Shown: piece by piece, positions 9,831 through 63,431 of the stretch
Numbering within the stretch: the stretch's first letter is position 1
Layout: each line of letters starts with the position of its first letter
Assembly: GCA_030264375.1 (NCBI GenBank)
Contig: JASCQW010000098.1
Coordinates: 53,919,238 to 53,983,237, forward strand
Direction of reading: 5' to 3'
DNA length: 64,000 bases
DNA from: Carcharhinus longimanus
Taxonomy: Eukaryota
Notes under the pieces: model-generated
Databases searched by the model: none
What the model was told of the DNA's origin: nothing
Seen by the model: the letters and a program-made list of their open reading frames with translations, nothing else
Program-made: the position numbers and the translations under genes

Positions 9831-11059
9831 ATTATTAATGATATATGTAAAAATTTGGTTAGAATTGGTGTTGAACCTAAACTTGTTTTATACATTAAGC
9901 TTTTATTTGAAAATAAATTCACTGCTACGTTACTGCTCTGACATAAAGCAATGGTTGACATTATTAATCAGCTTACTCAACCTGATATAAATTGATCAAA
10001 TTCAGCTATGAAAGAAACTGTGGTTGTCGCTTCTATTATTTTAATATAGCACTGGAATCATAACCTATGGTAATGAAGTATTTCAAAGTAAATAAACTTA
10101 CTCAATAGAAATAAAATGACCTTAATCTAAGAATCTGCAATGAAAGAATAAAAAATATTGGGCCAGGTTTTGCTATAGCAACAATGTTGAGTTATCAGTA
10201 TGCACTGTTACTAAGATTAAATCAGATACCAAAATCTGAGGCAATCTGGGAGCCCAAAGTTTCATCATGGTTCGGTTGGGGGTGGGGTAAAAAATCACCC
10301 GAGTGGATATTTAGGTTGGGAATCCTCTAGAAACTGAAGGAAGTACCTTTTGATGGGCACTGGGCACTATGACTTGGCAAAATGAGTAGAAGTGCACCCA
10401 TCAGAGGCTGAGAGTGATGGTAGACTTGCTCCCATAAAACTCCAATTCTGTGGAGAATGTACAGTGCAACATAGCTGTGGCATGAGATTTTCAGTTATGC
10501 TACAAGTTAAAGGGGCAAAATCTCTTCTGTGGAGCCAGAACTATGGATCCTGTAGTTTGGTGTTTAGTTGATATTGCTTTGCTTGTCGCAGTAAGATGCT
10601 TAAAAGTTTAAATCTTGTCATGTAATTCCTTTAAATTTATCACTGGGAATTCAGTATCTTTTCAAAAGTTATTGGTGTCTATGGGGATTGTAACAGTCTG
10701 AACCAACTGTCAATTAGAATATTTAAAATGTAATGTCAAATCAGATACAGAAAGCAAAATAAAGAACAGGAAATTATGATTAAGAAAGATACATGACAAA
10801 AGGATTTGTTAAAATTGTTTAAATCACTAACAACAATTAAAACATGATGGAGTCATCATGTTGACAAGAGTCCACAGTTGAAAAAGTTCATTTTCAGGGT
10901 CAGGAAGGTGTTAGCAGTAATTAAGACTTACTACACTGTTTAAAAACATATTTGTTGCTGCCCAAACTTTTTCAAGTGAGGTTACTGTACATCTCTCAGA
11001 TCAGTACAGAAACTTTACACTGTCACATGTATTTGATAACTTGCACAATAGAGAGGGAT

Positions 11060-14000
11060 GACCAAAGTTCAGGTAACCAGGGTAGAGACGAAAAATGACA
11101 CAGAAGTTTCTTGTGGGAGTGGTGTACAGGTTAGCTAATAATAAAACAACATGGTAGGATGGAGAAAATAATGGGAGCTTGTCAGAAAGGTGCAGTGATG
11201 ATCATGGGACTTTAATCTACATAGAGACTAGAAAAATCAGATAGGCAGATGTTGGCTGGATGAGGAGTTCATAGAATATTTTTGGGATAGTTTCCTAGAT
11301 CAGCACATTCTGGAACCAACTAGAGAGCAAGCTTTACTAGACCCGGTATTGTACAATGAGTTGGGATTAATTAATGACCTCATACCGACTAAGTAGCAGG
11401 TATCATAATATGACTGAGTTTTACATTCAGTTTGGGGAAGACAAAAGTGGGTCTACGATTAGTATTTTAAACTTACATAAAGGTAATTGTGAGGGCATGA
11501 AAGCAGAGCCAGCTAAATAGAACTGGCAAATTAGGTTAAGAATAGGTCCAAAGAGATGTAGTGACAGACATTTAAGGGGATATTTCTGAACACACAGAAG
11601 AAATACATTCCAATGAGAAAGAAAAACCCCAAGGGCATGACCCATACCCATGGTTATCTAAAAAAGTTATAGTATCAAACGTAACAAACAAAACACATGA
11701 GTAAAGATGAGGATAGATCAGAAGATTGGAATATAAAAACAGCAAAGAATGACTGAGAGATTGATAAAGTAGGAAAATTAGAGAATGAGAGAAAGATGGC
11801 TAGAAATATAAAGATGGATAGTAAGAGTTTCCATAGTTTTTTTTTAATGTTAGCAAAGTGAGTATTGGTCCTAGAGAAAATGATCTGGGAAAGTAATAAA
11901 GAAAAATGGGACGACAGATGAATTGAACAGGTATTACATCAGTCTTTATTGTAGAGAACACAATTAATATCCCAGGAATAGCTATAAATAGGGAAATGGT
12001 AGGAAAAAATTACAATAAGCGGGGAAATGATATTGAGCAAATGGTTGAAGATGTTTGCTGACAAATCCTGAGATCCATGGACTTATGATTTGATTTGATT
12101 TGATTTATTATTGTCACGTGTCAACATACAGCGTAAAGTATTGTTTCTTACGCACTATACAGACAAAACATAATGTTCATAGAGAAGGAAACAAGATAGT
12201 GCAGAATGTAGTGTTACTGTCATAGTTAGGGTGTAGAGAAAGACCAACTTAATTCAAGCTAAGTCCATTCAAAAGTCTGACATCAGTAAGGAAGAAGCTG
12301 GTCTTGTGTCAGTTGGTATGTGACCTCAGACCCAAGGTTGAATGCACTCAGATCCTGCATGAATCAGCTGGCAGGGGTATCCACAGATATCTTCAACCTG
12401 TCTTTACAACAATCTGAGATCCCTACCTGCTTCAAGAAGATTACCATCATCCTGATACCTAAGAAAACCAAGCTGCTTGGGTTTTTTTTAGGTACTGGGA
12501 TGATGGTCGCCTTCTTGAAGTAGGTAGGGATCTCAGATTGTTGCAAAGAGAGATTGAAGATGTCTGTGAATACCCCCACCAGCTGATCCACGCAGGATAT
12601 GAGTGCACGTCCGGGTACCTCATCCAGACCAGTTGCTTTCCATGTGTTGATCTTCAAGAAAGCTGCTCTGACATCTGCAATGGTGACCTCAGATACAGGT
12701 TCATCCAAGGCTTACAGGGTGGAGGACATGCTTTCGCTGACCTCTTACTCAAAACAGGCGTAGAATGCAATGAGCTCATCAGGGAGGGGTGCATTGGAGC
12801 AGGTGATTTACATGCCTTCATCTTGTAGCCTATTATTTCTTGCAGATCTTGCCATAGTCAGCAGGGGTCAGTGTGGCTAGCCTGGGATTCTAGCTTGGTC
12901 CTGTACTGTCTTTTGGCATCTTTGATGGATTTCTTTAGATCATAACTGGCTCTTTTGTATCGGTCAGTGTCACTTAATTTGAATGTCTCAGATCTGGACT
13001 TCAGCAAGCAGTGGATATCGCTGTTCATCCATGGTTTCCAAGTGGGGAACACATGGATTTACTTCTTTGACGCACAGTCTTCTACACACTTACAAATGAA
13101 GTCAGTTACTGTAGTAGCATACTCATTCAGGCTGGTTGCAGAGTTTTTAAATACTAACCAGTCCACTGATTCCAAGCAGCCCCATAGGAGATTATTTGAT
13201 TCCTCAGACCAACATTGCATGACTTTCTTTGATGGATTCTCCCACTTCAGTTTTTGTTTGTCAGCCGGGAGTAGGAACACAGCCTTGTGGTTTGACTTGC
13301 CAAATTGTGGGCAAACGATAGAGCGGTAGGCATGTCTGATATTTGTGCAGCAGTGGTCTAGGATGTTTGGGCCTCCAGTGGAGCAGGAGACGTGTTGGTG
13401 GTAACTTGGTGGTATGCGCTTGAGCTTGGCCTGATTGAAGTCCTGGCCACGATGAACAAGACCTCGGAATGTTTCGTCTCAAGGCTATTCGTAATGGTGT
13501 GTATTTCATCCAGCACAATCTCCACGTCCGCATGGGATGGGATGTAAACTGCCATCAGGATAACGTAGATGAACAGCCTCAGAAGGTAGTAGGGGCAGCA
13601 TTTTAGCATCAGGTATTCTAGGTCTGGGGAGCAGAAAGTTCCAGTTTTGCTATGTCAAGGCACCACGAGGTGTTGATTGGGAAGCAGACCCACCTCCCTT
13701 AGCCTTGCCTGAGGATGCTGTGTGGTCCATTCGATGGACTGAGAAGGCCTCTGGTTGTAGGGCATTGTCCAGTGAAGCATGAGTGAGCCGCATCTCCATG
13801 AAACAGAATACACAGCAGTCCCTCAAGACTTTATCTTCGGGTCTTAAAAGAAGTGATTATTGAGGTAGTTAATGTATTGGCTTTAATTTTCCAAAATTCC
13901 CTAGTTTCTGGAGAGGTCCCATGAGATTGTAACTTCTGTATTCAAAAAGGGACAGGCCAGTTAACTTAACATCTGTCAGTGGGAAAATGTTAGAAGCTGT

Positions 14001-15280
14001 TACTAAAGAGCAGAGTACTTTGAAAATCAGGTACTCAGGCAGGGTCAACAAAATTTTGTGAAAGTGAAATCATGTTTAATCAATTTATTGGAGTTCTATG
14101 AAGAAGTCATATGCTGTGGATAAAGGGGAACCAGTAAATGTACTAAGATTTCCAAAAGGCATTTTATAAGTTGCCACACCAAAGGTTATTGTGAAAATGA
14201 AAGCTCATGGAGTAGGGGGTAATATATTGGCATGGATAGATGACTGGATAGCTAACAGGTAGGCAAGATGTAATGAGTGGTATGCCACAGGGATTAGCGC
14301 TGGGGTCCCAATTTTTCACAATTCATATAAATGACTTGGATGAAATTACAGAAGGTATGATTGCTAAATTTATTAACACAAAGATAGGTATGAAAGTAAG
14401 TTGTGAAAAGGACAATAAGAAGGCTACAAAGGGACACAGATAGAAATTCAACAAATGGAGTATAATGTGAGAAAATGTGAAACTGTCCAATTTGGCAAGA
14501 ACATTCAAAGAACATTTGGCAAGATATTCATATTGTCTAAATGGTGAGTGACTGCAGAGCTTTGAGATGCAGGGGATGTCTGGGTGTCCTGGTGCATGAA
14601 TCACAGAAGGTTAATACACAGATTCAACAAGTAATTAGGAAATCTAACAGAATGTTATCATTTATTGTGAGGGGAATTGAATATGAAAGTAGTGAGGTTA
14701 TGCTTCATTTGTACAGGACATTGGTGAGGCCATGTCAGACCAACTCTTTATTTAACTTTCTTTATAAGGAACAATGTTAATGCATTGGGAACGATTCAGG
14801 GAAGGTTTATTAGACTAATACTTAGAATGGGCAGATTGCCCTATGAATAAAGGCTGGATAGTCTAGGTTTGCATCCACTGGAGTTTAGGAAAATAAGAGT
14901 TGACTTGATTGAAACATGCAAGATCCTGAGGAGTTTTGACAAGGTGGATGTGAAGAAGATGTTTCCCGTTGCAGGAGAATCTAGAACTAAAGGTCACTGT
15001 TTAAAAATATGGCAGCGCCCATTTAAGACAGGGAAGAGGAGAATTTTTTTTCCCTCATAGAGTCATGAATCTTTGGAACTCTCTTCCTCAAAAGGCAGTG
15101 GCAAAGAGCCTTTGTATACTTTTAAAGCAGAACTAGATATATTCTTGATTAATAAGGGAGTGTTAGATTATAGGAGGTAGGTTGGGATGTGGGGTTGAGG
15201 TTACAGTCAGACCAGTTACAATCTTATTGAATGTCAGAGGGTCTGAGTGACCTACTCCTGCTCCTAATTCACATGTTCAA
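11060..15280 (+). mobile_element. CR1 LINE ORF2 (APE, RT, 3' tail), decayed and split by a Rex1 insertion
   Basis: APE/tether at 11060-12085 and RT at 13830-15060 (LGVLVHESQKVNTQIQQVIRKSNRMLSFI...LYRTLVRP). CR1 tail CCTACTCCTGCTCCTAATTC at ~15250-15270. Confidence 0.9.
12086..13826 (-). mobile_element. Rex1/Babar LINE with internal deletion and foldback duplication
   Basis: CCPYYL...VILMAVYIPSHADV (APE), [30 protein letters not shown]. (GATTT)n tail at 12086. Host flanks GACTTAT/GACTTTAT. Confidence 0.9.
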
Positions 15281-20156: not shown

Positions 20157-22423
20157 AATAAGTATATTGCTTGTACTAAGTATTGCTCATTTACAATGTG
20201 GACAGTCTTGTAATTTATAACTTAAGTTAGGGGATCTGATAGAATTTTTATTCTTTCACCAGCTGCACATAAGGAGAATAATGATAATACTTTAAACAGG
20301 CCCATTACTTCAATATTGAACAGGTTTTAAAAAAGACAGCATGGACAAGTTGGGCCGAAGGGCCTGTTTCCATGCTGTAAACCTCTATGACACTAAAGAC
20401 ATTCTCTTTGTTTTATGGGGGACTCCAGTTGCAGCTGTACAAGTAAATAAAAATGTCAAAACATATGAAAATATCTAGAGTGGCAACTTCAAAATGTAAC
20501 AGCTTACTTTAAATTACTTTAAACCAGTATCTGAATGAAATCCTTTGAACATGACAGCAGACACTGGGCTAAATTTCCTTGGAATTATGGATTGTTGGAA
20601 ATGAGAATAAGTAAGGCATTCTTTACAGTTGAATGCACAAGAACATAAGAAACAAGGCTTGGGTGATTTATATAATCATTCGAACGGCAAAGTTTAAGTT
20701 ATAACCTTATTTTCATTCCCTACTATCATTAATAATTTTCTAACGTAGACTGTGCCAAATAAAATGACGACGCATTAATGACAGTTCAAAGATAAGCTCA
20801 AATTACATTATCAAGGATGATGAGAGGCTATCGTTATGTTATCATCCCAGTACAAAGGGCTGGAATTCCCATTTTGGCAATGCAATCACAGCAGCCATAT
20901 ATAGTTTTTGTTGTGCAGTTAATATATCATTTTCTGCAACCTCGCATGGCAATTTACTGTCAATAATAAGTTAAGCCACTCAACAGAACAAAGCAATGCA
21001 AATTTAATAGCTTAATGACAGAGTGTGAATCATTTGACTTTGTCAATGAGCATAGTTCATACTCCACTCATGGTCAATAAAGGAAATGAAAATGGCCTGT
21101 CAAACTATTTAAGTGAAGCCACATTTCAAAGAACAGAATTTCTTAATTAAGTTGTGAAAGGAACATGTAAATAATTTAATGTTTCTTGATGTAAATGGCA
21201 AATATGCCAAATATACATCAGGTCCCCAAATGACAGGATTTCCTGTTCTGATTGTCTCTACCCCCTGCCAATGATGTAATGCGGTTCCTGCCTTGAAAAA
21301 TCGGGAATCCTTTTATCATATATTTACATCTAATTAGCAAGCTTTCACACTCTATCATCCTCCCACATCAGATAACCCCCTGTCAGAGTGGTCTTAACAA
21401 GCTGGGATCCGGTGAAGTGAATCCACCTGGGGAGCACATGTAATTACAGCCCTTGGAGGGAGGAGGTCATGCCCAGGCAGTATCCTGCTAGGGCCCTGGC
21501 ACTTCCCAGGGTCAGTGTCAGGGGGCACTTCCAGGGAGGAGGAGCTTCTGTTGGGGTGCTCTGTGGGGGGGAGGGGAGCGCTTCCCAAAGTCCAAAGGGA
21601 GAGTCCTCTGAGTCTGTGGGAAAGGGAGGGTCTTCCTGTGTCCATGGGAGAATGGGAGTTCCATGTGTCAATGGGGAGGGGTTTCCTGTGACTGTGGGGG
21701 GAAGGATGCTCCCTCAGAGGAGGGAGGTCCATGTCCATGGAAGGATCTTTTGTTTATGTTTTTTTTCTCAGATCAAGAAGTCCTTCAAAGGAAAGCTGAG
21801 GTTGGTTGTGGGGCAAGCCCCTCAACATCACAGACTAAGGGTCAAAAAATATGACAGGAAAAGCCGGCAATGGAGCAGATGGTAGAACCATCACATCTCC
21901 TGTCTGAGTTAACAGTTAGTAAATGATAAAATTCCGCCCCACAATATTTCATCAGCACCCATAGTTGCCAATTTTAAACCAGGACAATATCTTTGTTTAT
22001 ACCCAGTTGTCAGTGACATTGAGGAACTCCTTAGTTTGGGAAGCAACTGTCATTTGGTGATCCAGGTGCCTGCAGTGTTGGGGATCGCCCTGTCTGAGGA
22101 ATATACAAGTGTCACTAAAATTCACAAGCACATAATGTGATCAGGGAAATATTCCGGTGTACCAGCTGCTTTTTTCATGCACTGACTTGTTAGAATCTGC
22201 GCCAACAAATTATAGCCCAAAAATCACCTTTTCCAGATTTCCCAGACATCTAAATATTTGCCCACACACTCATGTCCATTGGTAACAATAATCTGCTAAC
22301 CTTACCTGCTTATATATTAATTGTCCTCTTTTAGAGGAACTATCTCAAATTCTCAACAATGGGATTGGTGATCAGCAATATCTTCCTGTTTAATCTTCTT
22401 TTAAAATGTTATTACTTTCTCAG

Positions 22424-22605
22424 AGTTACAAACTTTATGCACAGAGTGGACAAGGGAAGCCCCTATCCCATCTCCTTGCTTTCTCCACAAAGCAATTCAA
22501 ATTCAAATTGAATCCAATTCATGGTTCCCACAAAAGGGACATACAAGATGCATGCTGACAAGAGCAATCTTTACACCTGATCTGGACTTGATCCTATGCT
22601 TGATC
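22424..22605 (-). mobile_element. U2 snRNA-derived element, 5'-truncated copy
   Basis: Minus strand GCAAGGAGATGGGATAGGGGCTTCCCTTGTCCACTCTGTGCAT versus U2 GCAGGGAGATGGAATAGGAGCTTGCTCCGTCCACTCCACGCAT. It shares GAATTGGATTCAATTTGAATT with the other copies. Confidence 0.75.
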
Positions 22606-22819
22606 GTCTTCAAGATTGCTTTAACTATGTCTACAGTATTTTAGCACTAATTGTCTCTTTTCCTCCAGAGAAGAATTTCCTTCCTAGTTAGGGTTACCAA
22701 CTTATTTGTATCTTTACTTCATCCTGTATGAATGATGAGCACTCACTTTTGTGTTTGCTACTGAAATAATGGCTGTGCTTATTGCCAACACAAGTACAGG
22801 AGGTGAAAACTATGTCCCT

Positions 22820-23622: not shown

Positions 23623-24017
23623 GAGTGTGAAGCAGACCGGGAGGAGTGTGAAGCAGACCGGGAGGAGTGTGAAGCAGAGCGGGAGGAGTGTGAAGCAGAG
23701 CGGGAGGAGTGTGAAGCAGAGCGGGAGGAGTGTGAAGCAGACCGGGAGGAGTGTGAAGCAGACCGGGATGAGTGTGAAGCAGACCGGGAGGAGTGTGAAG
23801 CAGACCGGGATGAGTGTGAAGCAGACCGGGAGGAGGGTGAAGCAGACCGGGAGGAGTGTGAAGCAGACCGGGAGGAGTGTGAAGCAGACCGGGAGGAGGG
23901 TGAAGCAGACCGGGAGGAGTGTGAAGCAGACCGGGATGAGTGTGAAGCAGAGCGGGAGGAGGGTGAAGCAGAGCGGGAGGAGTGTGAAGCAGACCGGGAG
24001 GAGTGTGAAGCAGACCA
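23623..24017. repeat. 21-bp minisatellite, ~19 visible units, next to a gap
   Basis: Unit GAGTGTGAAGCAGACCGGGAG with a few variant positions. Confidence 0.95.
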
Positions 24018-24289
24018 GGAGATTCTGAAGCTGGTCAAGATCACTGAAGTGAAGGAGAAAAAGAACAAACAGTGACATTATATGAAAACCATGAGAGGAT
24101 CGATTGGTGAGTATTCTAGCTTTGCTTCCCTTTTTCCAAAGTTAAGAAGTTAATCTAAGAAACAGGGAAATTACAAATGTGTTTTTTATATATATCAAGG
24201 GTTAAGTGGAGCATTTCAATTAACCTCCCCGTACTTAAGTGAGAACGGAAGAATAGAAGTGAGTAGCTGTTGTGTCTCTTTTCTAAGCA

Positions 24290-27200
24290 ATAAGTTTTAT
24301 AGATAGAGGAATGGCATGGTAGCACAAACCCTGGGAGTGCATTTCCTGTTCCATTTGCGAGATCCAGGACATTTCCTGTGTCCAAGGTAACCAGATGTGC
24401 AGGAAGTCAGGATTGTCAAGCTGCAGGTTTTAGAGTTTGAGCAACATCTGGAGTCACTGTGACACATCCAGAGGTGTTTTATTGACGGCACATTTACAGA
24501 TGTAGTCACACAGTAACGTAAGGAAGAGAGAGAAAATGGGTGACCACTAGGGAGTCAAGAAGAAATAGGCAGGTATTCCATGGCTTCCCTGAGAGCTCCT
24601 CACACTCCAACCAGGATTCAGTTCACAATATTGAGGAGAACGATGGTTTGTCAAGGAGTGCAGCCAGATCCAAGTCCATGGTTGGCTTAGCTGTACAGGA
24701 AGGATATAGGAATAGTGATCGGAAATTTGACAGTGAGGGGAACAGACAAGTGTTTCTGTGTCCATAGGCATGAATCCAGGTTGGTATGCTGCCTTCCTAG
24801 TATCAGGATCCAATATGTCACTGAATAGCGACAGATACCCAAAGCAGTGAGTGTGAACAGCCAGTGGTTATGGTCCACAGCAGTCATGCTCTGCATCAGT
24901 GCCAACAACATAGGTAGAAAGCAGGAAGTCCGGCAATCAGACTTGGAGAGTTAGGTAGGAAATTAGCCAGCAGATCCTTGGAAGTCGTAATCTCCAGATT
25001 ACTCCTGGTACCACGCACATGCGAGTATACAAATAGAAGGATAGAGCAGATTAATTTGTGGCTGGAGGGCTGGTGTGGGATGGAGGGCTTTAAATTCTTG
25101 GGTCATTGGGATCAATACTGGGATAGATGGGACCTATACAGGTCAGAAAGGTTGCACCTAAACAGTCCTTATGGGATGTTTTGCAATGGGGAGAGTTTAA
25201 ACTAACTTGGCAGGGAAAAGGGAACCAGGAGGTAGTATCAGCGAGGGATGCCAAGGTGGAAAGAATATTGGGAGAGACAGCTAGTACTAGAGTAGCAAAT
25301 AGTAAGGTATTAAGTAGGTTCCATATAAGAGGAAAAATAATAAAGTCAAAATTAGGGTTACAGTGCATATATGTGAATGTATATAGTGTGGTAAATAAGA
25401 CTGGTAAGTTGTAGGTGCAAATAGCCATGTGGAAATATGATGTGTTAATAAAAAAAACCTGGCTCCAGGAAGGGCAGGACCGGGTATTAAATATTTCTGG
25501 ATACAAAGTATTCAGGAAAGATATGAAAGTAAGGAAATAATTGTTGGCAGTTTTGGTTAAGGACAACACTGCAATGTAAGAGAGAAAGAATATCCCAGAG
25601 GGAACAAAGACAGAGCCTATTTGGCTAGAGCTAAGGAACAAAAAAGGTACAATTATATTGCTCGGTGGAGTCCATAGACCACCAGCTAGTGGGAAAGAGG
25701 CAGTGAAGCAAATTTGCAAGGAAAATACAAAGAAATGCAAGACTGATAGAATGGTATAATAGGGAATCTTAATTATCCAAATATAGACTGTGATAGTGTG
25801 AGTTCAAAGGACAGAGAGGGATAGGAATTCCGAGTATATTCAGGAGAATTTTCTACAGCAGTATGTCCACAGTCCAGTGAGTGAGAAAGGACACTCTGCT
25901 GGATCTAGCTCATGGAAATGAGACAGGAACACCTAGGGAATAATGATCATTCCATCGTAAAGTTTTGGTTGGCAACAGAAACGGGATATGGTGCAATCCT
26001 GGGAAAAAGTGAACGTTAATGGGGTAAGAATGGATCTGAGCTAAATAAATTGGAATCAAAGATTAGGAAGCAAGACCATAGCTGAACAATGGATTGCCTG
26101 TAAAGAAAAAAATTGTTCAAGTACAGTTAGTGCCTATGAAAGGGACAGATAGGGCGGACAAATGCAGAACTCCCTGGATGATGAAAGAGATAATGATTAA
26201 GGTGAAGCACTCAAACTGTGCTTATAACAGATGTAAAATTGAGAACCAGAGCAAAGATCAGAAGTTTAAAAGGGAATTGAGAAAGCAAGTAAAAGAAGCA
26301 ATGAAAGAGTAAGAGAAGAGAGTGGAAACTAACATATAAGGAAATCCCAAAATCCTCCAAAACATATAAATAGTAAAAGGGTGGTAAAAGGAGGGATGAG
26401 GCTGATTAGAGACCAAAAAGAGAATTTATACATAAAAGTAAGGGAGAGGGCTGAGGAATGAAATGAATGCTTTACATCTGTTTATACCAAGGAAGAAGCA
26501 ACTACCCAGGTCATAGGAAAAGAGAAACAAGTTCAGAGACTTGAAAGACTTAAAATTCACATGAGGAAATATTGGTTAGGCTGCCTGTACTTAAAGTTGA
26601 GAAGACACCAAAACTGGATGAGATGTGTCAAGGAAACTGATGGAAGTAAGAATGGAAATTCAGATGCCGAAAGAGGAAATTCTGGAAAATCTCAGCAGGT
26701 TTGGCAGCATTTGTAGGGAGAGAAAAGAGCTGATGTTTCAAGTCCTGATGACCCTTTGTCAAAGCAGAGGCAATGATCGTAATTTTCCAGTCTTCCTTAG
26801 ACTCTGGGGTGAGGCCAGGGGACTAGAGAATTACAAATGTTACAAAAAATACTAAACCCATGAACTACAGACCAGTTAATTTAACTTCAGCCTTGGGGTA
26901 GCTTTTAGATATTATTATTTGGGACAAAATTTGTAGTCACTTGAGTAAATGCAGGCTAATTAAGGAAAGAAGGCATGAATTTGTTAAGGGCAAATTATGC
27001 TTAATCAGCGTGCAGGGGTAACAGAGAAGATTGATGAGGGTAATACTGTTGATGTGGTATACTTTGACCTCCAAAAAGTATTTAATAGTCTTCCCTACAG
27101 ATTTATGAGCAAAGTTGGAGCTCATGGAGTCAAAGAGACAGTAACAACATGAATGCCAAATTGGCTGAGTGAGTGTAGTGGTTAATGGTTGTCTTTTGGA

Positions 27201-33600: not shown

Positions 33601-34421
33601 TTCACTCTGAGAGTGAATTGGTGCCAGACTGAAGACATTTAAGTTCAATGTCAATCTTACATGTGCACTGGGCATATAGCAGGATCAGGTCCACCATATG
33701 CTTTATATCTATTTGGTTTTACTTTCCATTGACTTCAAAGGTGAGTATAATTAGACAGCTTTTACTATGGGTAGGTTAAATTAAAATCAGAGCCTTATAG
33801 GCAGAGTATCAATTCTGGGGTCAGGATGGTGATACTAGAATCATTGCTGGATCCTGACTGTGTTGACAATGCACATTGTTGCAGTTATGATGCAGAAGTA
33901 AGCTAATTAACCTAAAGTCACATTCATTGCCCAATGTGCAGAGGCTGATAAGACTAAGAGGCTGCACTTAGACAATAAACCCATGTCTTATTATATCCTT
34001 TCTGATCTACCATAATGGACAGTCTTCCTCAGTGCCCCCCTCTCATTAACCCCTGAAGGCCATAAGCTGAGGGATCTTTTAACCTGCCCCTCTTTCCCCA
34101 AAGAGTACCCTTGTCAACAGTGAGGAGCGATGTCAGATAACTCTTTAGACTCTGTGTAATTATTGCTGTTGATTGAGAGTCTTTTCTCAGCCTTCTCTCT
34201 TTGATCAAACCTCATGTTTCTGTCCTGTCACTTTGTACATCTTCCCACAATGATCGCGCCTCCTCCCTTCTATTGTGGTTTGTATTCTGCATGAAGTTGG
34301 TGATTCCAGATAAAAACTCAAGACTGGTCATTAATGAGCTGACAACTTTTTTATGCAGCTTGACTGACTACTCAGTGACCTAGGCAAGTTGGTTCTTCCA
34401 GCCCTTGGTGAAGCTTGGTAA

Positions 34422-34748
34422 GGCGGCACAGTGGTTAGCATTGCTGCCTCACAGTGCCAGAGAATTGGGGTCAATTCTGGCCTTGGATGACTGTGTGGAG
34501 TTTGCATGTTCTCCCTGTGTATGTGTGGGGTTCCTCCAGGTGCTCTGGTTTCCTCCTACAATCTAAAGATGAGCAAGTTAGGTGGGTTGGCCATGCTAAA
34601 TTGCCCCTCAATGTCCAAAGATGTGGGACTCGGAGGATAAGCAGGGTAAACATGTGGGGATTAGGACCTGGGTGAAATGCTCTGTTGGAGAGTTGGTGCA
34701 GACTTGATGGGCCTAATTGCCGCCTTCTGCACTATAGGGATTCTATGA
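34422..34748 (+). mobile_element. HE1-type V-SINE, full length
   Basis: GGCGGCACAGTGGTTAGCA head, V-domain GTGTGGAGTTTGCATGTTCTCCC...GGTTTCCTCC, CR1-type tail CTTCTGCACTATAGGGATTCTATGA. Confidence 0.92.
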
Positions 34749-36551
34749 GCCTTTTAAACTTGAAGTGCATTGGTTCCATATTGAAAAACCAGCACATTGA
34801 TACAAGGGAAGAGCTCACACGCCCACTCATTTCCTAATTTTCCCCCCCCCACCCACTACCCATGCCCCATACACACACCCCCACCCACCCCCATCCTCCC
34901 TGCTTCCTCCAATCCCACAGTGAATTGACGGCGAAGGTAATTATGAATTAGGAAATATCAGAACGTTGTGGGTGATAGGTGGCACTTAGAGTATGGCCTG
35001 TTTATTTAAGGATTCCAATTATCCAAGCCAAGGCTGATTTGTGCCAAGAACCCTTGATCTATCTGGGAAGACAGTATTTAGACACATTAATCATAACTGT
35101 CCTTCTAAATTTGTCGAAAGATGAGGAATGACATTGTAAAAAAATGAGCATCTTTTACTGATGGACATTAATGTTATTTCCATGGTTCTTTACACTGGGA
35201 TTACACGTCAAGTACTGTGCATAACACTTCAATTACTTCACAAGAACAATCAACGAATAGAGGCACACATAACCTCAGGCTATTTTATCCATGACAGGAC
35301 TGGATCTACATATAACATTTAAAAACATTTGTAAATTTAAAAATTTCAATGATGAACAACATTGTGAAATATACTAACATGGTGTTTATGCAAAAAAATT
35401 ACGACTATACTGTGAAATATCTATCATATTAAAATAAATATTTTGGAGAGGTCGATGAGAAATGTTTTAATCTGTAGCAAAAGCAGTGTTTCTCTTAAGG
35501 ATAGTGCTACAACATTTTTCTTCCTACTTGGAGTCTGATCTTGTTTCCCAGGCAACGCAGATATCACAGGATCAATAACGTGTCTGTCATAAAAACAGAG
35601 ATGGGCTGGAGATAAAACTGGCTAAGCTCTCCTCACCACATCACTATATCGTAGCAAAACAATTTATTTCTACTCAAGTAAGTTTTATATTCAGATTGGA
35701 AAGAGTTGTTTTTACTCTTAGATAAGTAACATTCAAGATTTTTTGAGTCTAATTTAGTGAAATGCTTCCAAGCAAAATATCAGAGACAGTTGAAGATATA
35801 TTATCCTGATATTGTGTTGACATATTCACTTTGGAAAAGTATCCCTCAGTACCAGTGTGGCATTTTGAATCTTCAGACCGTTTCCCTCTGATTTTGTTTT
35901 GCATTTAAATTTTACTTCCTGGAATTTAAAGTAAGACTTTGCTCACAATTTCTCGCTTTGATCTTTTCAAGAAAGACTGCCCAGTTATATTGAATCGTGC
36001 CGAAGAAACATGTTTTGCTCATTTGCCAAATACAGGAGACAATTCTTATCGATGTGCTTTATTATAGTACGAATGTGTTGTCGTGGAACCTTAGTACCAT
36101 GTCCTGTGTCCGAAAATGAAGCACAGCTCTGTAAGCTAAACTCCTTCCTCATAAGACAGGCTATGCTACTTTAAGGGCTGCAAGTAATTCCTGGTACCTC
36201 CACAAGGTTGTGAATGACGAGGCACCACAACGCTGCTGAAAAGCATGTTTACCAGTTTGGCTTAAAGTCAAAATGCTTCTCAATCATTGTAACCATCACA
36301 GCTAAAACAGTTCAATCCATTCCTAATGCAAATTGTCCACTCGTTCATCTTAACCCATCAGTGGTACATTGTATTTATGTAAAAGCTCCAAATATAAATC
36401 CTAACTCTGTACATTATTAAATTCCATTTAAATGTGACTGTCCATTTTGCTCAGTTTTCACTGATGTTGTATAAAGTTGTGCTGATTAAAAAGGTGATGC
36501 ATTTGCTTCTCAAGATAGCAAGAGAACATCAAAAGATAAAGGACTTCATTA

Positions 36552-36960
36552 GGTCCTTTGGCTAAGATGCAAATGAGATCAAGCCTTGGAGAAGGTGCAA
36601 TGCCTGCTCCAATCAACTTGTATCATGTAGATCAAGCCCAAGACAGGAAGTGGGTAAGCCTGTCTTGTCAGCTTGGATCTGGAATGTCTCACTTGTGGAC
36701 ACTTTGAATTGGACTTTGTTTGGATTGAATTGGATATTAAAAAAATGTAGAAGAGGGAGATAATTTCTGGCCTTTTGGCTAAGGTCGAGCTTCAGCTCAA
36801 GCCGAAGATGAGGTGCAATGCCTTATCTTATCAGTTTGGATCTTGTTGGTCTCTCATGTGGGGACCATGAGTCAGATTCAATTTGAATTTGGTTTTTGGA
36901 GCAAGCAAGGAATGGGCTTGAGTTTGCCTGATCCACTCTGAGCATTGGCTTTGTAACTTT
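36552..36960 (+). mobile_element. U2 snRNA-derived element, head-to-tail dimer (~36552-36745 and ~36760-36960)
   Basis: TTCTGGCCTTTTGGCTAAGGTCGAG (U2 5' stem), TCTTATCAGTTT (U2 stem IIa), GGTTTTTGGAGCA (Sm-site region), GAGTTTGCCTGATCCACTCTGAGCATTG (stem III). The first unit starts GGTCCTTTGGCTAAGAT. Confidence 0.8.
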
Positions 36961-37842
36961 AATTTTTTTTACTCCATTCTTAAAAAGGGGATGTTCATTC
37001 AGAATTAAGGCTATGGATGTTTGAAGTTACTGATATTGTGGATTTTTATCCACCACTGTAATTATCATTACAAGTCTTAGATTAGTTGTCCTGAGTCAGG
37101 ATTGATAGAAACTGATGGAAGCAAGGCTGTCTGTAAACTTTGAACATTTAATTAACTATGTACATGTGAAGCTGAGCACAAGGTTTCACATAAAGCTATC
37201 TCTCAGCATTTCCTGTTGTCTTGTGATCCTACATCACTGATCTCTTTACACACTTAAATGTAACTCTTTATACTACATTTCCTCAAGTTGCTGACCTGAT
37301 TAAATGCATTATTTACATTTTCTGATATCTCCTTCTGGCACTGCCTTCATCCCAGGTACACAGCGATAAGGTCTGTGAAATTCCCCAATCTCCCATCCTT
37401 ATTTTGGGTGTTGAATGGAATTCAAGTTCTCTCGGTTCTTTCTCGAACTTGGTCAAGGAGAATGTGAATCATCAGAGACTATCAGCTCTCTGTTCAGGCT
37501 GCTTTTCTATTGTTTGGGTAGTTGATCCACTCCATTGATTTTTTTCTTCCTGTAGATACGAATGCACTTCTGTTACTTCTCACTATTTCATTTTCAGTAT
37601 CCATAAGATAACATTGTGTATCTTGTCCAAAACTTGGCCTTTGCAATTTTGGTCATGACTCCATACTGATCCCCTGGCAACCCCTGGTTATCGTTTCTGG
37701 CTTGCTTTGCATGATATAGATCTTCCTTTTCTCTAACTTTCTCTATATTTGCTCCTTTGAGACATGGCATAAGCGTGTTGGAAGAACAGGAAGTTGACTC
37801 CCTGACAGGAAGTCATCTTCCCATTAAAAGTTCAGCTGGAGG

Positions 37843-38148
37843 AATAGAATCCCTACAGGACAGAAGGAGGCCATTCGGCTCAACAAGTCTGTGCTGACCA
37901 CGTTACCACTGAAGCCCTTTTCCAACAATCCCAAACATTTACCCTGCCAAACCCCCTGACACTAGGGTTAATTGAGCACGGCCAGTTAACCTAACCTGCA
38001 CATCTTTGGACTGTGGGAGGAAACCGGAGCCCCTGGAGGAAACCAATGCAGATACGGGGAGAATGTGCAAACTCCATACACACAGTGATCCAAGGCTGGA
38101 ACTGAACCCGGGTCCCTGATGCTAACTACTGTACCACTGTTCCACCCT
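37843..38148 (-). mobile_element. HE1-type V-SINE
   Basis: Reverse complement of the 34422-34748 type. Confidence 0.9.
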
Positions 38149-39334
38149 TATTGCCATAGTGCTGCATTCTGAGGTGGTATGTTTACATACTTAATATTAA
38201 CCCTTTGCATTACATAGCCGACTGCCCATTTCTTACCTGAACAACAGAGGAACATTTGGTGAGCACGTTAGGCAACCGGTCTGCCCAGTTTACTTTGCAG
38301 GCAGGTACTTAAATGGGATCCCGGCACCCCTGCCAAAAACAGTTAGACCACACATGTCACATATTTGTTCGAGATGTACAGGCATTCTGACACCTAGCCA
38401 AGGGTCCTAGAGGCTTTGCTGAAGGTTTAGGAACTGCAGAAGGCTGTTTGACAGGAAAGGGTGAATAACAGCATGTAAATGGATGGGAGCTAGTGGAAAG
38501 AATAGCACAGCAGATGGCTCACCAGTAGGCAAGCTTTCATTGAAACTCTGGTAAAGAGGACAAATGAGCAAATTTTACAGACATGGCCTTTAAAAGAAAG
38601 ATTTTTCAAATACATCAGAATTGTTTGAGGTATTAGATTGTCTACTTAAGAGTTGCCACATTAGGACGAATGTTTTTGGCCCAGGGGTGATGGGTTTGGA
38701 GGTGGGCAGAATGTGTCATGAAGGAACATGAATCGTTTCCGCCACTGACCAAACTTTCCAGAGGTGGTCGAGCTACAGGGTTGAGAGCGCACGTAGCTGT
38801 GGTGAACAAGCAGCCATCTGGGCCACCCACATCAAGGACCCAAACAAAATATCAGCAAATAAGATGTAGAACAGAGCCATAACAGATTCCTAGAGCCTTG
38901 TGAAGCAGATTTACATTGGCCTCACAGTGTCTCTAAGTAGCACATTGTTTCCATGGACCCTGTTTAGTGGTCAGCACAAGCCTTCGCATGCTGAATTATA
39001 TCGAACTGTTGGTGCAAGATTGACAACTGCCTGAAGACAGGAACAGGTATATTATGGTTAATATTTTCTTCATTGGTCACCCAGAAGAGATAGTCACCCA
39101 GGGGCCACTTACACAGTCTGGGGAAACTTTCCACTGAGACTGAATTTTGCACTGAGAGCAGAGCCCCTGACTCACAGCATAAAAGCTGGTGACAAATCCA
39201 CCTTGCCCCACAGCCATTTAGCAATACCAGGCCATTAATTGGCAAGAGGCCAAACTTCTATCCCCCTCGGCAAGGATATTCCATCTCAGAAATCTGCCAC
39301 CCAATCAGATGGCTGACAGCATCATCAGTAAAGG

Positions 39335-41712: not shown

Positions 41713-43207
41713 TGTAGCTAATACATTGTGTCATTGAGTGGTAGGACAGGGGCCTGAACTTTTTGCCCGTCGGGCACAGATAATCACCAGGCTTAGAAGC
41801 AGATGCAAAACACACGTCTGATCACAAGACACCCCAGAACATGATTTTACACAGGCTGGCCAATGAAAGGACAACCATCGTGAAAATATGGCTGGGAAAG
41901 GCTCAGTGTTTTTGAGGAGGGTGGCGAAATGGTGGGCACTGAGTAAAGGGAGGGTNNNNNNNNNNNNNNNNNNNNNNNNNNNNNAGAGCTGTCTCAGGGA
42001 CCTGCTGGCCTGTAAAGAATAAATTACAATGGAAAAACTATGCAACACATGTCTCGGCAGCACATCCAAACACAAACCTCAGTCCCAGATACCACTTTAA
42101 ATTTTATTGACAGTTCATCCCAACCTGGATTAAGCTAAAACATAAAAACCGTTTGGCCAAATGGCTCACCATAAAAGCAGACAGGCTGATTAATAGTATG
42201 TGTTCACAAAAAAAGGGGCCTTTAATATAAATCTCCAGATCAGTCTTGGGTTGCCTGAGATAGTCTCTCTTTTTGTACAACAGGAATAAAGCTTTGAACT
42301 GATTCCCAAATCTCCTCTGATGATGATTCAATTGTTCCACAGTAATTTGGCATAGTTGGCAACATGTCAGTGACCTAATAATGGCAGAGACACCTCATGG
42401 AGAAAACTCTCCAAAGATGTAAACCTTCAGCAGTGTGGTCTCTCAGAACAATGGGGATTGTTTATCCTCGCACTTCCCCCTGCTTCCCCAAAATGTTGAA
42501 CAAGTACTTGACAGCGGGCCTCCTCAGCTTCCACGTCCCCCCCCCCNNNNNNNNNNNNNNNNNNNNNNNNNNNNCCATCAACTGCTAACTTTTATTGCCT
42601 TTTGCTTCTTGCTCATTAGGGAGTTCCATATATGTTCAGTTGTGATTTTTGGCTGAAATGTCATTCATGGAAACAGGAAATCAGGTGCAATTGACACATA
42701 ACATTTAACTGTTTCTCCTCCTTCTGGGCAGTTTAATTTCGCTTTCCAGGCCAAGGGTGTAACAACTGCATATAAATGTTTATTTTCCTCTAAACAAGAA
42801 GTCTCATGATATTTTTCAAACATCCATGTGAATTAGCTTTTGCGGTAATGTCAACAACATCTAGAAGAAGTGGACATCCTGTCCTGATTAGAAAACTGCT
42901 TGCTTCAGGAGCCCTAGTTTAATTGTACATCGCTGATGTGTCAGCCACACAGATTTGTCAGCCAAACCTCCCTAATTAAGGCTAGTGCCAGGAATACTTC
43001 TGAAGGAAATGTTGAGGGATTATGATAACTGTCCTCGCAGCCATGTACTAGATATGGGGAAGTATGTTTCGTCTGAGTTCATTTCTCATTTGAAGGGAGG
43101 TTTAGTAAAATGCTTTCATTTATCAACATTTGACCAAACACAAGAAATGCAATTTTAGTGTCATACAAAGCAATTCATTTCCTATCGTTGACGTGGCTAA
43201 ACATTTG

Positions 43208-43590
43208 TAGAATCCCTACAATGAAGAAGGAGGCNNNNNNNNNNTATTCGGCCCATAGAGTCCACATCGACTCTCCGACTGAGTATCTTATTCAGGCCCT
43301 ATTCCTGTAAACCCACACATTTACTCCGCAATTCCCCTTAACGTGGACAACTCAGAATACTAAGGGGCAATTTACCATGGCTAATCCACCTAACCTGCAC
43401 ATTTTTGGAGTGTGGAAGGAAACTGGATCACCCGGAGGAAACCCACACAGATACAGGGAAAGCGTGCAAACTCCAAAGCTACAGTGACCCGAGGTNNNNN
43501 NNNNNAAACCTGGGTCCCTGGCGTTGTGAGGCAGCAATGCTAACCACTGTGCCACCTTGCCACCCAAACCACTGTGCCACCGTGCTGCCA
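43208..43590 (-). mobile_element. HE1-type V-SINE with duplicated head
   Basis: Standard HE1 reverse complement; AACCACTGTGCCACC occurs twice at 43542-43581. Confidence 0.9.
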
Positions 43591-49870: not shown

Positions 49871-50451
49871 TTTGAAGTGTTCCATTCCTGATGATTGCAA
49901 GACAAAAAACTTCAGCTTTGGAGAATCTTCAGTTCAGTTCTACAAATTACATGACACAACATTTAAAATGACTTTTGTCCTTTTGTGGTTCTTATGTCTT
50001 ATGGCTTAAATAGTCAGTTGTGGTGATGACATTAATGCAACTATTTCCAATAATAACACAATGAAGTTGCTGGTTCCATGTAACAATGCCTATCTGATTC
50101 TGTACACTGGCATGACACTTGAGAATATTGTGACCATATTGTCTAAAGAATGGGCATTATTTCAAATGCAAATAATTTTTGAATTAGCGTTTTTACAGTC
50201 AACAATGATCTTCCTTTCATTGTGTATTTGGTTACATTGGAGTCCTGCCTTTGTGTTTGCTTTCCTAGTCCAGAACTTCCAAATACTTTCAGTAAAGCCA
50301 AACACTTCTATCATATTTATCTTTTTTGTTGCATTGATTGTTTTTATTTCAGTTTATAGAATCAGTAATTTAGCTGATACTTTATACAGTTAACTCCAGG
50401 ACAAGGCAATATCCTTTGTTGCTTTTTCAATTACAATTGACAAAGCACTAA

Positions 50452-50668
50452 TGGGTGGTACAGTGGTTAGCACTGCTGCCTCACAGCGCTAGGGACCTAG
50501 GTTCAATTCCAGCCTTGGGGGACTGTGTGGAGTTTGCTTGTTCTCCTTGTATCTACATGGGGTTGCTCCGGGTGCTCCGGTTTCCTCTCACACTCCAAAG
50601 ATATGCTGGTTCGGTGGATTGGACAGGGTAAATTGTTGCTTAGTGTCAGGGGATTAACTGCATAAATA
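50452..50668 (+). mobile_element. HE1-type V-SINE, 3'-truncated
   Basis: Head and V-domain present, tail absent. Confidence 0.88.
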
Positions 50669-50669
50669 T

Positions 50670-55620: not shown

Positions 55621-55802
55621 TTCAACTGGTGGGCTGGGAATGAAGTAGGGAACCCCCAGGATTGAGGCAACAAACCAACTGGGGAAATCAAAAGTCATTT
55701 TATGCTCTTTCCAATAATGCAATATTTCTTTCCCATCAGCGAACAGATTATGTGTTGCATCAATAGCTCTGCATGTTAGAAAAGATGAATTACAGCAAGA
55801 AC

Positions 55803-56103
55803 CGGTGGCACCGTGGCATAATGATTAGCACTGCTGCCTAACAGCGCCAGGTTCAATTCCAGCTTTGGGTCACGGTTTGTGTGGAGTTTGCACGCTCTTC
55901 CCATGTCTGTATGGGTGCTCTGGTTTCCTCCCATAGTCCAAAGATGTGTGGGTTAGGTTAACTGGACATGCTAAATTGACACTCGTGTCAGGGACTTAGC
56001 AGGGTAAAAATGTGGGGTCACTGGAATATGGTCTGGGTGGGATTGTGACCGATGCAGACTTGATGGACCAAATGGCTTCCTTCTGCACTGTAGGGATTCT
56101 ATG
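55803..56103 (+). mobile_element. HE1-type V-SINE
   Basis: Head, V-domain and CTGCACTGTAGGGATTCTATG tail. Confidence 0.9.
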
Positions 56104-56419
56104 GAAGCCATTGAGGCCCAACACTGAAAGACAATGTAATATGGTAAATGGACTCAGCCATATGGTTAAGTATGAAACAAAACACAACTATTTTCCTTGA
56201 TGGTGGGTTTATTCACAGAATGTAGCCTTTGCATATATGATCCGAGCCCTGAGTAAACCTATGTATCATTAACATAATAACCAAACAGATTCCTCTTTTC
56301 TTTAAACAAAAAAACTTTATAACGTGCTTAAACATACAAAGCAAAGAAAGGAAATAGATTTTCTGCAATTCTTCGCATGCATCATAACACTCATCATCCC
56401 TATTCTATGAATCCAATAA

Positions 56420-60130: not shown

Positions 60131-60774
60131 TTTAGATGATCCCAACAGCGTTTGTATCGAATTCCTCGAGAGCACTAACAAAGGGATTTCATCACGCGAT
60201 TTTTCTTTCAAAAGAGGAGCTTCAAAAATATCGCAAATGGTGTTAGAATTTGCAGGGCACAGGGTAGAACGGAGCAAATTATAAAGTCACAGGAATAACC
60301 TCCCTTTTGTGCATCTCGATTTGAAGAATTAAATCTACACCAGACCCGCAGCTCCAGGCAAGACACGATGCCGCAGTGAGTGGAATACAATGGTAAAGAA
60401 TGTGATTTACGCTTGTGTACAGCTCGCACTGAGCTGAAAGGAATGATGAGGTGCGGGGAAATCCAAGACAAGCTACTAACCTCAGCTTCCGTTTCCAAGA
60501 GTTTTACTCAGTCCGCAGGGAAGAGGAAAGTTAGGGAGGGCTTTACAAACTAGCTGCACTTTACTCCACGGACTGTGTTGATGCTTCACTTTGGCACAGT
60601 GCTGCCCATTTGTAGTCGCTTGGCAGAAGAATTAAGACTATTAAACAGATCGCCTCATACTGCTTTGCCTAACGCCGACTGCAACTGGTGCAGAAGTGAC
60701 ACTTGAAAAGTTGCCAACAGATTCAACGATAGTATGAACACAGACAAATACCATTTCCAAGACTGCAACATGAA

Positions 60775-61040
60775 CGGTGGTACTTTGGTTAGCACTGCTG
60801 CCTCGCAGCACCAGGGACCCGGTTTCGATTCCTGGCCTGGGTCACCGTCTGTGTGGAGTTTGCATGCTCGCCCCGGGTCTGTTTTTGGTTTCCTCCGGGT
60901 GCTCCGGTTTCCTCCCACAATCTGAAAGACGTGCCGGTCAGGTGCATTGACCCAAACAGGCGCTGGAGTGTGGCAACTCGGGGAATTTCACAGTAACTTC
61001 CTTGCAGTGTTAATGAAAGCCTTACTTGTAACTAAAAAAT
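60775..61040 (+). mobile_element. HE1-type V-SINE with alternative tail
   Basis: HE1 head and V-domain, then AACAGGCGCTGGAGTGTGGCAAC...TTGCAGTGTTAATGAAAGCCTTACTTG. Confidence 0.85.
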
Positions 61041-61434
61041 TAACTTTAACATTGAGGACAATTTTAACTGTTCCTGCCAGACAGAAAACAGGGAGCATTG
61101 AGTTGGCTTCACATTTCCCACCTTCCCTTTCCATCCCTTCCCACTGACTTTATTGACTTGGAATATGAGAGAGGAAAGGGTGAATTTGCCTGTCAATACA
61201 AACTGGGCACGGCAAGTAATTCCTGTACCAGAACAGATAGCTGCCTGAAGCACACTCGCTAATTGGCTTCAGGACTCATTTAAATGAGGGCAGTGAGATC
61301 AAGCACCTGCTACTCATCCCCAGGCAGCCCCCCACTAACATGAATTTAAATGTTAAACTATATCATCAGCAGCAGCCCTCATGTAGGCTCTGGATGGGGA
61401 GATGATCAGGAGCTGGGGGAGGGGAACAATCCAG

Positions 61435-62790: not shown

Positions 62791-63021
62791 TTATTTTTTA
62801 TTATTAAATTTTATTTCTTTATTAAAGCTACAGAGCCAATGCGCAGAGTGGTCGGGGCGAGCCCTTAAGCTAGCTCCAAAAACCAATTCAAATTCAGATT
62901 GAATCCAATTCATTGTCCCCACAAGAGCAATTCACAAGATCCAAGTTGACAGGAAAAATTATTGCACCTGATCTTGGGCTTAATCCTACTACATTTGATC
63001 TGAGCCAAAAGACTGACAGGA
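62791..63021 (-). mobile_element. U2 snRNA-derived element, most complete copy, with A-rich tail
   Basis: Minus strand GTCTTTTGGCTCAGATCAAATGTAGTA (U2 nt ~12-38, including GUAGUA)...GGGGACAAT...GGTTTTTGGAGC...GGGCTCGCCCCGACCACTCTGCGCATTGGC, then AATAAAGAAATAAAATTTAATAATAAAAAATAA. Confidence 0.82.
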
Positions 63022-63431
63022 ATGCAGAGCGGAGCGCCCCTCCAAGAGTTTAATCGCAGGAACTGTAATATCTTGGCATTTGGGAGGGAGGATAGCACGT
63101 CAACTTTTTATAACACTAGCCACTGTAACTGAATGAGTGAATAAATGAATGTTGGAGAATGAATCCATGGATGTGTGAGTGAATGGGTAGGTTAGAATGA
63201 TGGATATGTGGCTGAGATAGGTAGGCAACTAGATAGAGTTGGTGAGGTAAAGTGGCAGATGGATCAAATAGAAGGTGGGTAGGATGACAGTTTAATGAAA
63301 TGATAGGTGGCTAGAGTGGCAAGTAGGGTGGCAAATGAGTGTGGAAGGTAGGTAGGTGATGTATATAGGTGGGCGAGGTGGGTAGATGGGTCGGATCAAG
63401 GTTAGTCAGGATGGGGTTAGCCAGGCTGAGT

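What the first reader, a model, noticed from the sequence alone, without database searches (positions are those of the whole stretch)
62791..63021. Dispersed U2 snRNA-derived family: candidate shark U2-SINE or divergent U2-like RNA
Seen: three loci (22424-22605 -, 36552-36960 +, 62791-63021 -) are homologous to each other and collinear with U2 snRNA as I recall it. The match covers the 5' stem (CTTTTGGCT.AGATCAA), branch-point helix GTAGTA (this copy), stem IIa (TCTT.TCAG), stem IIb (GGAC.AT), Sm-site region (GGTTTTTGGAGC) and stem III (..CCACTC..GCAT). It is lost around stem IV, and this copy ends in an A-rich tail. The copies share features absent from U2: a ~25-30-nt insert after U2 nt ~38 and an extended GAATTGGATTCAATTTGAATT before the Sm site. 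Known: snRNA-headed SINEU families were described from crocodilians; ordinary U2 retrocopies derive independently from canonical U2. Inference: shared derived characters mean a distinct master sequence, and three loci in 64 kb suggest high copy number. I do not know of a description of this family in cartilaginous fish.
Basis: partly seen in the sequence, partly recalled or inferred. Interest (0 to 1): 0.88.

Follow-up and report, generated by a model that had tools for sequence, protein, structure and literature searches.

The report
Shark jumping genes built from snRNAs
This genome, likely a shark's, holds thousands of short mobile DNA copies stitched together from pieces of the splicing RNAs U2, U1 and probably U4, likely spread by a LINE retrotransposon that can insert into U2 genes; a paper search found this kind of element only in crocodilians.

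Summary
Confirmed and larger than reported. The three window loci hold four copies of a dispersed retroposon superfamily: at least 1,969 sites, likely 5,000-15,000. All 70 monomer copies tested are closer to each other than to the genome's U2 gene. The old monomers (A, B; about 225 nt) are U2 with two internal duplications and loop IV deleted. Composite subfamilies (C1-C3) add a probable internally deleted U4 piece plus either a U1 head (nt 1-97) or a fresh U2 head ending at nt 37-40. Young copies have A-tails and target-site duplications (9 of 29 vs 0.3 shuffled). Of 7 genome sites where an A-tail abuts U2 nt 39, the published Keno/Utopia site, 2 are this element and 3 are an APE-type LINE. 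One locus reads U2(1-40)-element-A tail-U2(39-112). Best reading: a SINEU-type family mobilised by a Keno-like Tx1 LINE, likely borrowing the U2 gene promoter. No master gene or RNA evidence was found, and Repbase/Dfam could not be checked.

The parts
62791..63023 (-). Focal copy: subfamily A monomer, U2-derived, with A-rich tail
   Evidence: nhmmer 62802-63020; 85% identical to the A majority and 63.5% to the U2 gene; Rfam U2 21.5 bits
62987..63023 (-). U2 nt ~5-38 head: stem I; branch-point hexamer present in this copy
   Evidence: hexamer in 2 of 70 monomer copies
62961..62986 (-). Family-specific duplication of the U2 21-36 region; 5' arm of a new long hairpin
   Evidence: alignments; fold of majority
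62876..62911 (-). GAATTGG-type repeat expansion and degenerate Sm site (G in place of the A before the U-run)
62791..62823 (-). A-rich tail; no clear target-site duplication at this old copy
22399..22615 (-). Subfamily A monomer, 5'-truncated
   Evidence: nhmmer 185.6 bits; 82% to the A majority
36550..36745 (+). Subfamily C2 copy, 5'-truncated (lacks the U2 head and U4 module), two 54-nt units, A7 tail
   Evidence: top genome hits 88-92% identical; alignment to the C2 majority; orthologous flank runs into it in two other coded organisms
36764..36985 (+). Subfamily B monomer directly behind the C2 tail (head-to-tail tandem)
   Evidence: 89% to the B majority

Best explanation
The finding is one copy of a multi-subfamily, non-autonomous retroposon built from U2, U1 and probably U4 snRNA pieces, likely copied by the APE endonuclease and reverse transcriptase of a Keno-like Tx1 LINE, and likely transcribed by RNA polymerase II from the U2 gene promoter when a master copy sits at U2 nt 38/39. 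SHOWN: thousands of dispersed copies from distinct masters; A-tails, 5' truncation and target-site duplications (target-primed reverse transcription); repeated addition of U1 and U2 5' heads; element and LINE tails at the same U2 nt 39 junction; LINE tails directly in front of element heads. INFERRED: that this LINE is the partner and belongs to Tx1/Keno; that fresh U2 heads come from insertion into a U2 gene (promoter capture) rather than template switching; that the U1 head came by template switch or another insertion; that masters were selected for folded RNA in which the branch-point pairing region is altered or tied up in a hairpin.
For: Copy number: exact 16-mer at 1,969 sites and U2-head 18-mer at 1,424 sites, reversed controls 0. 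Recapture 4 of 30 gives about 15,000; random density 2 in 713 kb gives about 7,000. Masters: 70 of 70 monomers closer to each other than to U2. TSDs: 9 of 29 young copies vs 0.3 expected. Heads: 30 of 30 sampled U2-head sites lead into the composite element, and U2 identity ends at nt 37-40. The U1 head matches U1 nt 1-97, 0 of 500 shuffles; the U4 5' stem-loop plus Sm region matches, 0 of 5,000 shuffles. LINE link: A-tail joined to U2 nt 39 at 7 distinct sites, 3 LINE tails and 2 element tails; L273 = U2(1-40), element, tail, U2(39-112). PMC4640811 passages put Keno and Utopia 3' flanks at U2 nt 39. The LINE has an APE domain and zf-RVT. LINE-like tails abut element heads in L160, L286, L023 and L030. 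The C1 tail resembles the LINE tail, 4 of 2,000 shuffles. U2 stems keep pairing in masters more than a null (A 30 of 35, P 0.035; B 30 of 34, P 0.005).
Against: No master locus found: no family copy among the loci held had a U1, U2 or U4 gene upstream flank. The LINE is not U2-specific: besides the query, 0 of 19 top 3' ends are followed by U2. Tail similarity to the LINE is absent for A, B and C2 (169-646 of 2,000 shuffles) and for C1 includes a plain AATAAA. TSDs are weak in old monomers (7 of 45 vs 2.8). Rfam support for U4 is weak (8.7 bits, E 3.6). U2 3'-truncation near nt 33-40 is also typical of ordinary template-switch chimeras (recalled), and promoter capture does not explain the U1 head. 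The Tx1 clade call rests on domain architecture and the insertion site, not on a tree.
Confidence: 0.72

Rival explanations
1. Same retroposon family, but heads were added by template switching or RNA ligation during reverse transcription, and masters are transcribed from flanking host or repeat promoters, as proposed for crocodilian SINEU.
For: Explains U1, U2 and U4 additions by one process; LINE tails abutting truncated element heads fit template jumping; no promoter-bearing locus found; PMC4494074 discussion favours it.
Against: Fresh U2 heads end within 1-2 nt of the site where A-tails abut U2 nt 39, and L273 carries both halves of U2 around the element.
Confidence: 0.2
2. The copies are retropseudogenes of one or a few functional variant snRNA genes (a divergent U2-like RNA) rather than a selfish SINE.
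For: Stems IIb and III keep pairing through compensatory changes; K-turn pattern in 12 of 30 and the U1A loop in 9 of 30 U1-headed copies; the genome does make retrocopies of a real U2 gene.
Against: Branch-point hexamer, loop IV and canonical Sm site are altered in the monomers. At least five masters succeed one another with gains of modules, which is SINE-like. No copy held has snRNA-gene flanks.
Confidence: 0.06
3. Independent retrocopies of canonical U2 that decayed, or chance similarity.
For: Weak Rfam score at the focal copy.
Against: 70 of 70 copies closer to each other than to U2; shared indels; pattern controls 0.
Confidence: 0.01

Closest known systems
SINEU-1/-2/-3 of crocodilians (Kojima 2015, PMC4494074; parts 1-4 of 5 of the text read, supplement not available)
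   Same: snRNA-derived heads, repeated 5' addition of U1 or U2 pieces, partial duplications inside heads, poly(A) tails, tandem insertions, internal oligo-T, thousands of copies, probable Tx1 partner. Monomers A/B parallel SINEU-3 (a remodelled U2).
   Different: The paper reports no SINEU outside crocodilians and 0 mentions of U4 snRNA. Here: a probable U4 module, internal duplications instead of SINEU-3's 50-bp deletion, no shared flanking transposon seen in the aligned flanks, and direct insertions at U2 nt 39. Sequence homology to SINEU was not tested; independent origin is assumed.
Keno (Tx1 clade) and Utopia U2-targeting LINEs (PMC4640811, passages only)
   Same: 3' junction at U2 nt 39; the LINE here has an APE endonuclease like Keno.
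   Different: The finding is non-coding and non-autonomous; the LINE here is mostly inserted outside U2 (0 of 19 other top copies).
snRNA retropseudogenes and U6/LINE-1-type chimeras (bioRxiv 10.1101/2025.02.02.635956, passages only)
   Same: snRNA 5' pieces joined in sense to retroelement sequence, with TSDs.
   Different: Those arise one by one; here the junctions are inherited by hundreds to thousands of copies from masters.

Membership tests
SINEU (snRNA-headed SINEs) | 5' region derived from U1 or U2 snRNA | tested here: met
   U2 3-36 34/34 in C2; U1 1-97, 0 of 500 shuffles; monomers about 70% to U2 over 175 nt
SINEU (snRNA-headed SINEs) | Copies derive from master elements, not independent retrocopies | tested here: met
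   70 of 70 closer to each other than to U2; shared indels; subfamilies
SINEU (snRNA-headed SINEs) | Short (<500 bp), poly(A) tail, TSDs | tested here: met
   about 225-430 nt; TSD 9 of 29 vs 0.3 in young copies; weak in old copies
SINEU (snRNA-headed SINEs) | Internal oligo-T, no Pol III promoter | tested here: inconclusive
   T4-T6 runs in all four majorities; box A/B patterns (recalled) gave only scattered one-mismatch hits with no control
SINEU (snRNA-headed SINEs) | Mobilised by a Tx1 LINE (shared targets or heads) | tested here: inconclusive
   shared U2 nt 39 junction and adjacency; no RT tree, no assay
Crocodilian SINEU-1/2/3 lineages (homology) | Sequence homology beyond the snRNA parts; preference for Mariner-N4_AMi | not testable with these tools
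   No Repbase; supplement of PMC4494074 not held
Functional U2 snRNA | Rfam U2 score above cut-off; branch-point hexamer, loop IV and Sm site intact | tested here: not met
   21.5 vs 46 bits; hexamer 2 of 70; loop IV deleted
Functional snRNA gene | PSE upstream and 3' box downstream | tested here: inconclusive
   No family copy among the loci held shared an upstream flank with 12 U1/U2/U4 loci; only a few hundred of thousands of copies were examined
Keno (for the candidate partner LINE) | APE endonuclease | tested here: met
   PF03372, E 7e-8
Keno (for the candidate partner LINE) | Specific insertion at U2 nt 38/39 | tested here: inconclusive
   3 LINE tails at the site and one U2 1-41 5' junction, but 0 of 19 other top copies U2-flanked

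The most novel reading that the evidence does not exclude
An independently evolved shark SINE superfamily with no promoter of its own that renews itself by inserting into U2 genes at the Keno site and taking the snRNA promoter, and that assembles U1, U4 and U2 protein-binding modules (U1A loop, K-turn) into a folded RNA while disabling branch-point pairing. This would be the first U4-containing SINE and would answer how SINEU-type elements are transcribed.
Probability: 0.4. Interest if true: 0.85.

Novelty: new variant of a known kind. Interest (0 to 1): 0.68.

Why it matters
How SINEU-type elements are transcribed without an internal promoter was left as an open question in the paper that described them. 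This family gives a concrete, testable answer: promoter capture at the U2 nt 38/39 site. It also supplies a second, probably independent origin of the class, with young subfamilies shared by several related organisms. It adds a probable U4 module to the known sources of SINE sequence. Practically, such copies inflate snRNA annotations (young copies pass the Rfam U2 cut-off), and presence/absence of young insertions could serve as phylogenetic markers.

Tried and rejected
Whole-window Rfam scan found no U2. About 100,000 copies, as the window density would suggest, was rejected by random sampling. A search for a master locus by flank similarity to U1/U2/U4 gene upstream regions found none. Sequencing runs: no RNA holder listed, which is no evidence either way. 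Contigs laid on the 36-kb locus showed no empty site and no contig spanning the stretch. Rfam on a U1-headed copy gave only 11 bits for U1 and 8.7 bits for U4, so those assignments rest on alignment to the genome's own genes. Pfam found no family in the 125-aa RT-like fragment. The protein atlas gave only generic endonuclease clusters. Tail similarity to the LINE failed for A, B and C2. The antisense-U2 origin of the segment behind the C2/C3 head scored low in pairwise alignment (12-16) and had no control; only the predicted hairpin is reported. The tandem regex gave 12 of 108 loci; I dropped L018, L137 and L154 as false hits and counted L030 as a LINE-like tail, leaving 8. Paper searches that found no shark or cartilaginous-fish report: (listings only, except papers named elsewhere).

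Full report
OBSERVATION. The three stretches are in the window as described. A profile built from genome copies finds 22399-22615 (-), 36547-36962 (+) and 62802-63020 (-), with no hit in reversed controls. Rfam misses them in the whole window and gives U2 21.5 bits, E 0.031, on a 501-bp stretch. The genome (G000, 2.68 Gb) has a canonical U2 (L031, 188 bits), which I used as the reference throughout.

MONOMERS A AND B. Searching with the focal copy gave 1,961 first-look candidates; the 40 scored were 72-90% identical apart from self. Aligned with L031, the copies are U2 from about nt 1 to 180 with a 24-nt duplication of the nt 21-36 region, a GAATTGG-type expansion before the Sm site, an 8-nt deletion of loop IV and an A-rich tail. 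Of 70 near-full-length copies, 35 classed as A, 20 as B and 15 were unclassed. They average 87% to their own majority and 63-66% to U2, and 70 of 70 are closer to other copies than to U2. The focal copy is A (85%), the 22.5-kb copy is A (82%) and 36764-36962 is B (89%). The branch-point hexamer is in 2 of 70 copies.

COPY NUMBER. Exact patterns gave 46 sites (28-mer), 1,969 (16-mer), 80 and 1,424 (U2-head 18-mer); all reversed controls were 0. Four of 30 loci picked by the 28-mer hold the 16-mer, giving about 15,000; 10 of 29 BLAST-picked loci hold it, giving a lower figure near 5,700. Eighty 10-kb stretches at arbitrary positions (713,330 non-N bases) held 2 clusters, about 2.8 per Mb or roughly 7,000 genome-wide with a wide interval; 187 kb beside the window held none. 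The order is 5,000-15,000, and the window is about 17 times denser than average.

COMPOSITE SUBFAMILIES. The first half of the 36.5-kb locus is a different, younger subfamily (C2; top hits 88-92%). Full C copies carry two 54-nt units, end just after the U2 Sm region, and have a shared 5' extension. In C1 the extension is U1 nt 1-97 with an 11-nt deletion (score 108 vs shuffle maximum 44.5, 0 of 500), followed by a module matching U4 nt 23-46 and 116-129 (0 of 5,000 shuffles; single-segment tests 0 of 1,000 and 1 of 500; Rfam only 8.7 bits). A K-turn pattern (definition recalled) survives in 12 of 30 U1-headed copies vs 7 of 300 random pieces, and the U1A loop in 9 of 30. In C2/C3 the head is fresh U2: all of the first 30 U2-head sites on contig C1 lead into the composite element and none is canonical U2. 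U2 identity stops at nt 37 (8), 38 (1), 39 (7) or 40 (14), though the pattern forced at least nt 36. Median identity to majority is 92% for C2 (21 top BLAST hits, so biased high), 94% for C3 (n=6) and 83% for C1 (25 rows, some partial). Eighteen of these 30 sites have assembly gaps inside the element, which I infer reflects near-identical young copies.

RETROTRANSPOSITION. Of 54 young loci, 29 had both ends; 9 of 29 have flanking repeats scoring 8 or more, against 0.3 in 40 shuffles (maximum 2), typically 10-20 bp and often starting in an A-run. Old monomers show only a weak excess (7 of 45 vs 2.8). Head-to-tail tandems occur at 8 of 108 loci after I dropped three false hits and one LINE-like tail, with 0 in 800 kb of random sequence.

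PARTNER. A search for an A-run directly before U2 nt 39-58 gave 29 matches at 7 distinct sites. Three end in the same LINE 3' end (one with about 25 extra nt), two in C3 tails, one in a short C-like tail and one is a bare A-run inside U2. L273 reads U2(1-40), C3 body with a gap, A-tail, U2(39-112). Passages of PMC4640811 state that U2 downstream of Utopia starts at nt 39 and that Keno uses the same flank. The LINE family has 801 first-look candidates, an APE domain and zf-RVT. Its nearest named proteins include a ray (62%) and a horn shark (72-74% over about half the query), which fits but does not prove a cartilaginous-fish host. Against specificity, 0 of 19 other top LINE ends are followed by U2; one has U2 1-41 at its 5' junction. 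LINE-like tails abut element heads in L160, L286, L023 and L030. The C1 tail resembles the LINE tail (4 of 2,000 shuffles) but A, B and C2 tails do not.

STRUCTURE. Of U2 stem IIa-IV pairs, 30 of 35 (A) and 30 of 34 (B) still pair, against null means 25.5 and 23.9 (P 0.035 and 0.005). Majority folds have z of -1.5 (A) and -3.8 (B), and -2.5 (C1), -4.5 (C2) and -5.6 (C3). In C2/C3 the fresh branch-point region is predicted to lie in a long hairpin. Selection on the master RNA is inferred, not shown.

RANGE. A C3 copy is held by 24 listed runs from 15 studies, 11 coded organisms plus unlabelled rows; none is on record as RNA. Four runs laid on the 36-kb locus each gave 4,189-6,826 contigs on the element. 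In two organisms with about 92-93% flank identity the orthologous contig runs 30-40 nt into the C2 copy, so this insertion likely predates their split; one run appears to be the same species.

COMPARISON AND NOVELTY. The family works like crocodilian SINEU (PMC4494074, parts 1-4 of 5 read) and meets the structural definition; homology to those lineages could not be tested, and that paper's supplement was not available. Searches and passages of PMC5381603, PMC7245038, PMC5786205 and bioRxiv 2025.02.02.635956 showed no report in cartilaginous fish and no U4-containing SINE. Repbase and Dfam were not searchable, so an unpublished entry may exist. The scan's own index had nothing on this sequence or genome and one analogous spliced-leader note elsewhere.

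VERDICT. A real, probably undescribed SINEU-type superfamily; new variant of a known kind; interest 0.68. The family and its retrotransposition are shown. The LINE partner and promoter capture are inferred.

Noticed in passing
L035-L039, L041, L042 (source gene L031:1501-1760): A separate young set of canonical U2 retrocopies, 92-95% identical to L031, that carry about 35-60 nt beyond the mature 3' end including the 3'-box-like region, without poly(A); L036 and L037 have clear TSDs. They look like copies of unprocessed pre-U2.
   Followed up: partly
L031, L032, L033, L034: At least four divergent U2 gene types (80-89% identical) with unrelated upstream sequence in one genome; L034 is a tandem unit.
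   Followed up: no
L270:341-1379 (-): Array of U2 pieces and LINE fragments, including a bare poly(A) inserted in U2 between nt 37 and 39.
   Followed up: partly
L045, L046, L058, L069, L124: Several monomer copies are split by 130-500-bp insertions of other sequence.
   Followed up: no
window 12395-12555: Long inverted repeat (about 65-bp arms) that scores against plant miRNA models below cut-off; probably an inverted duplication of a repeat fragment.
   Followed up: no
window 26173-26222 (+): Weak SNORD44-like match (24.9 bits, E 0.87); probably chance.
   Followed up: no
window 34409-34767, 37837-38155, 43205-43589, 50450-50669, 55802-56118, 60767-61074: Copies of a very abundant approximately 320-bp repeat (up to 160 hits in 800 kb of random sequence), likely the main tRNA-derived SINE of this genome.
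   Followed up: no
window 23623-24141: 21-bp-type tandem repeat giving a spurious 173-aa frame.
   Followed up: no
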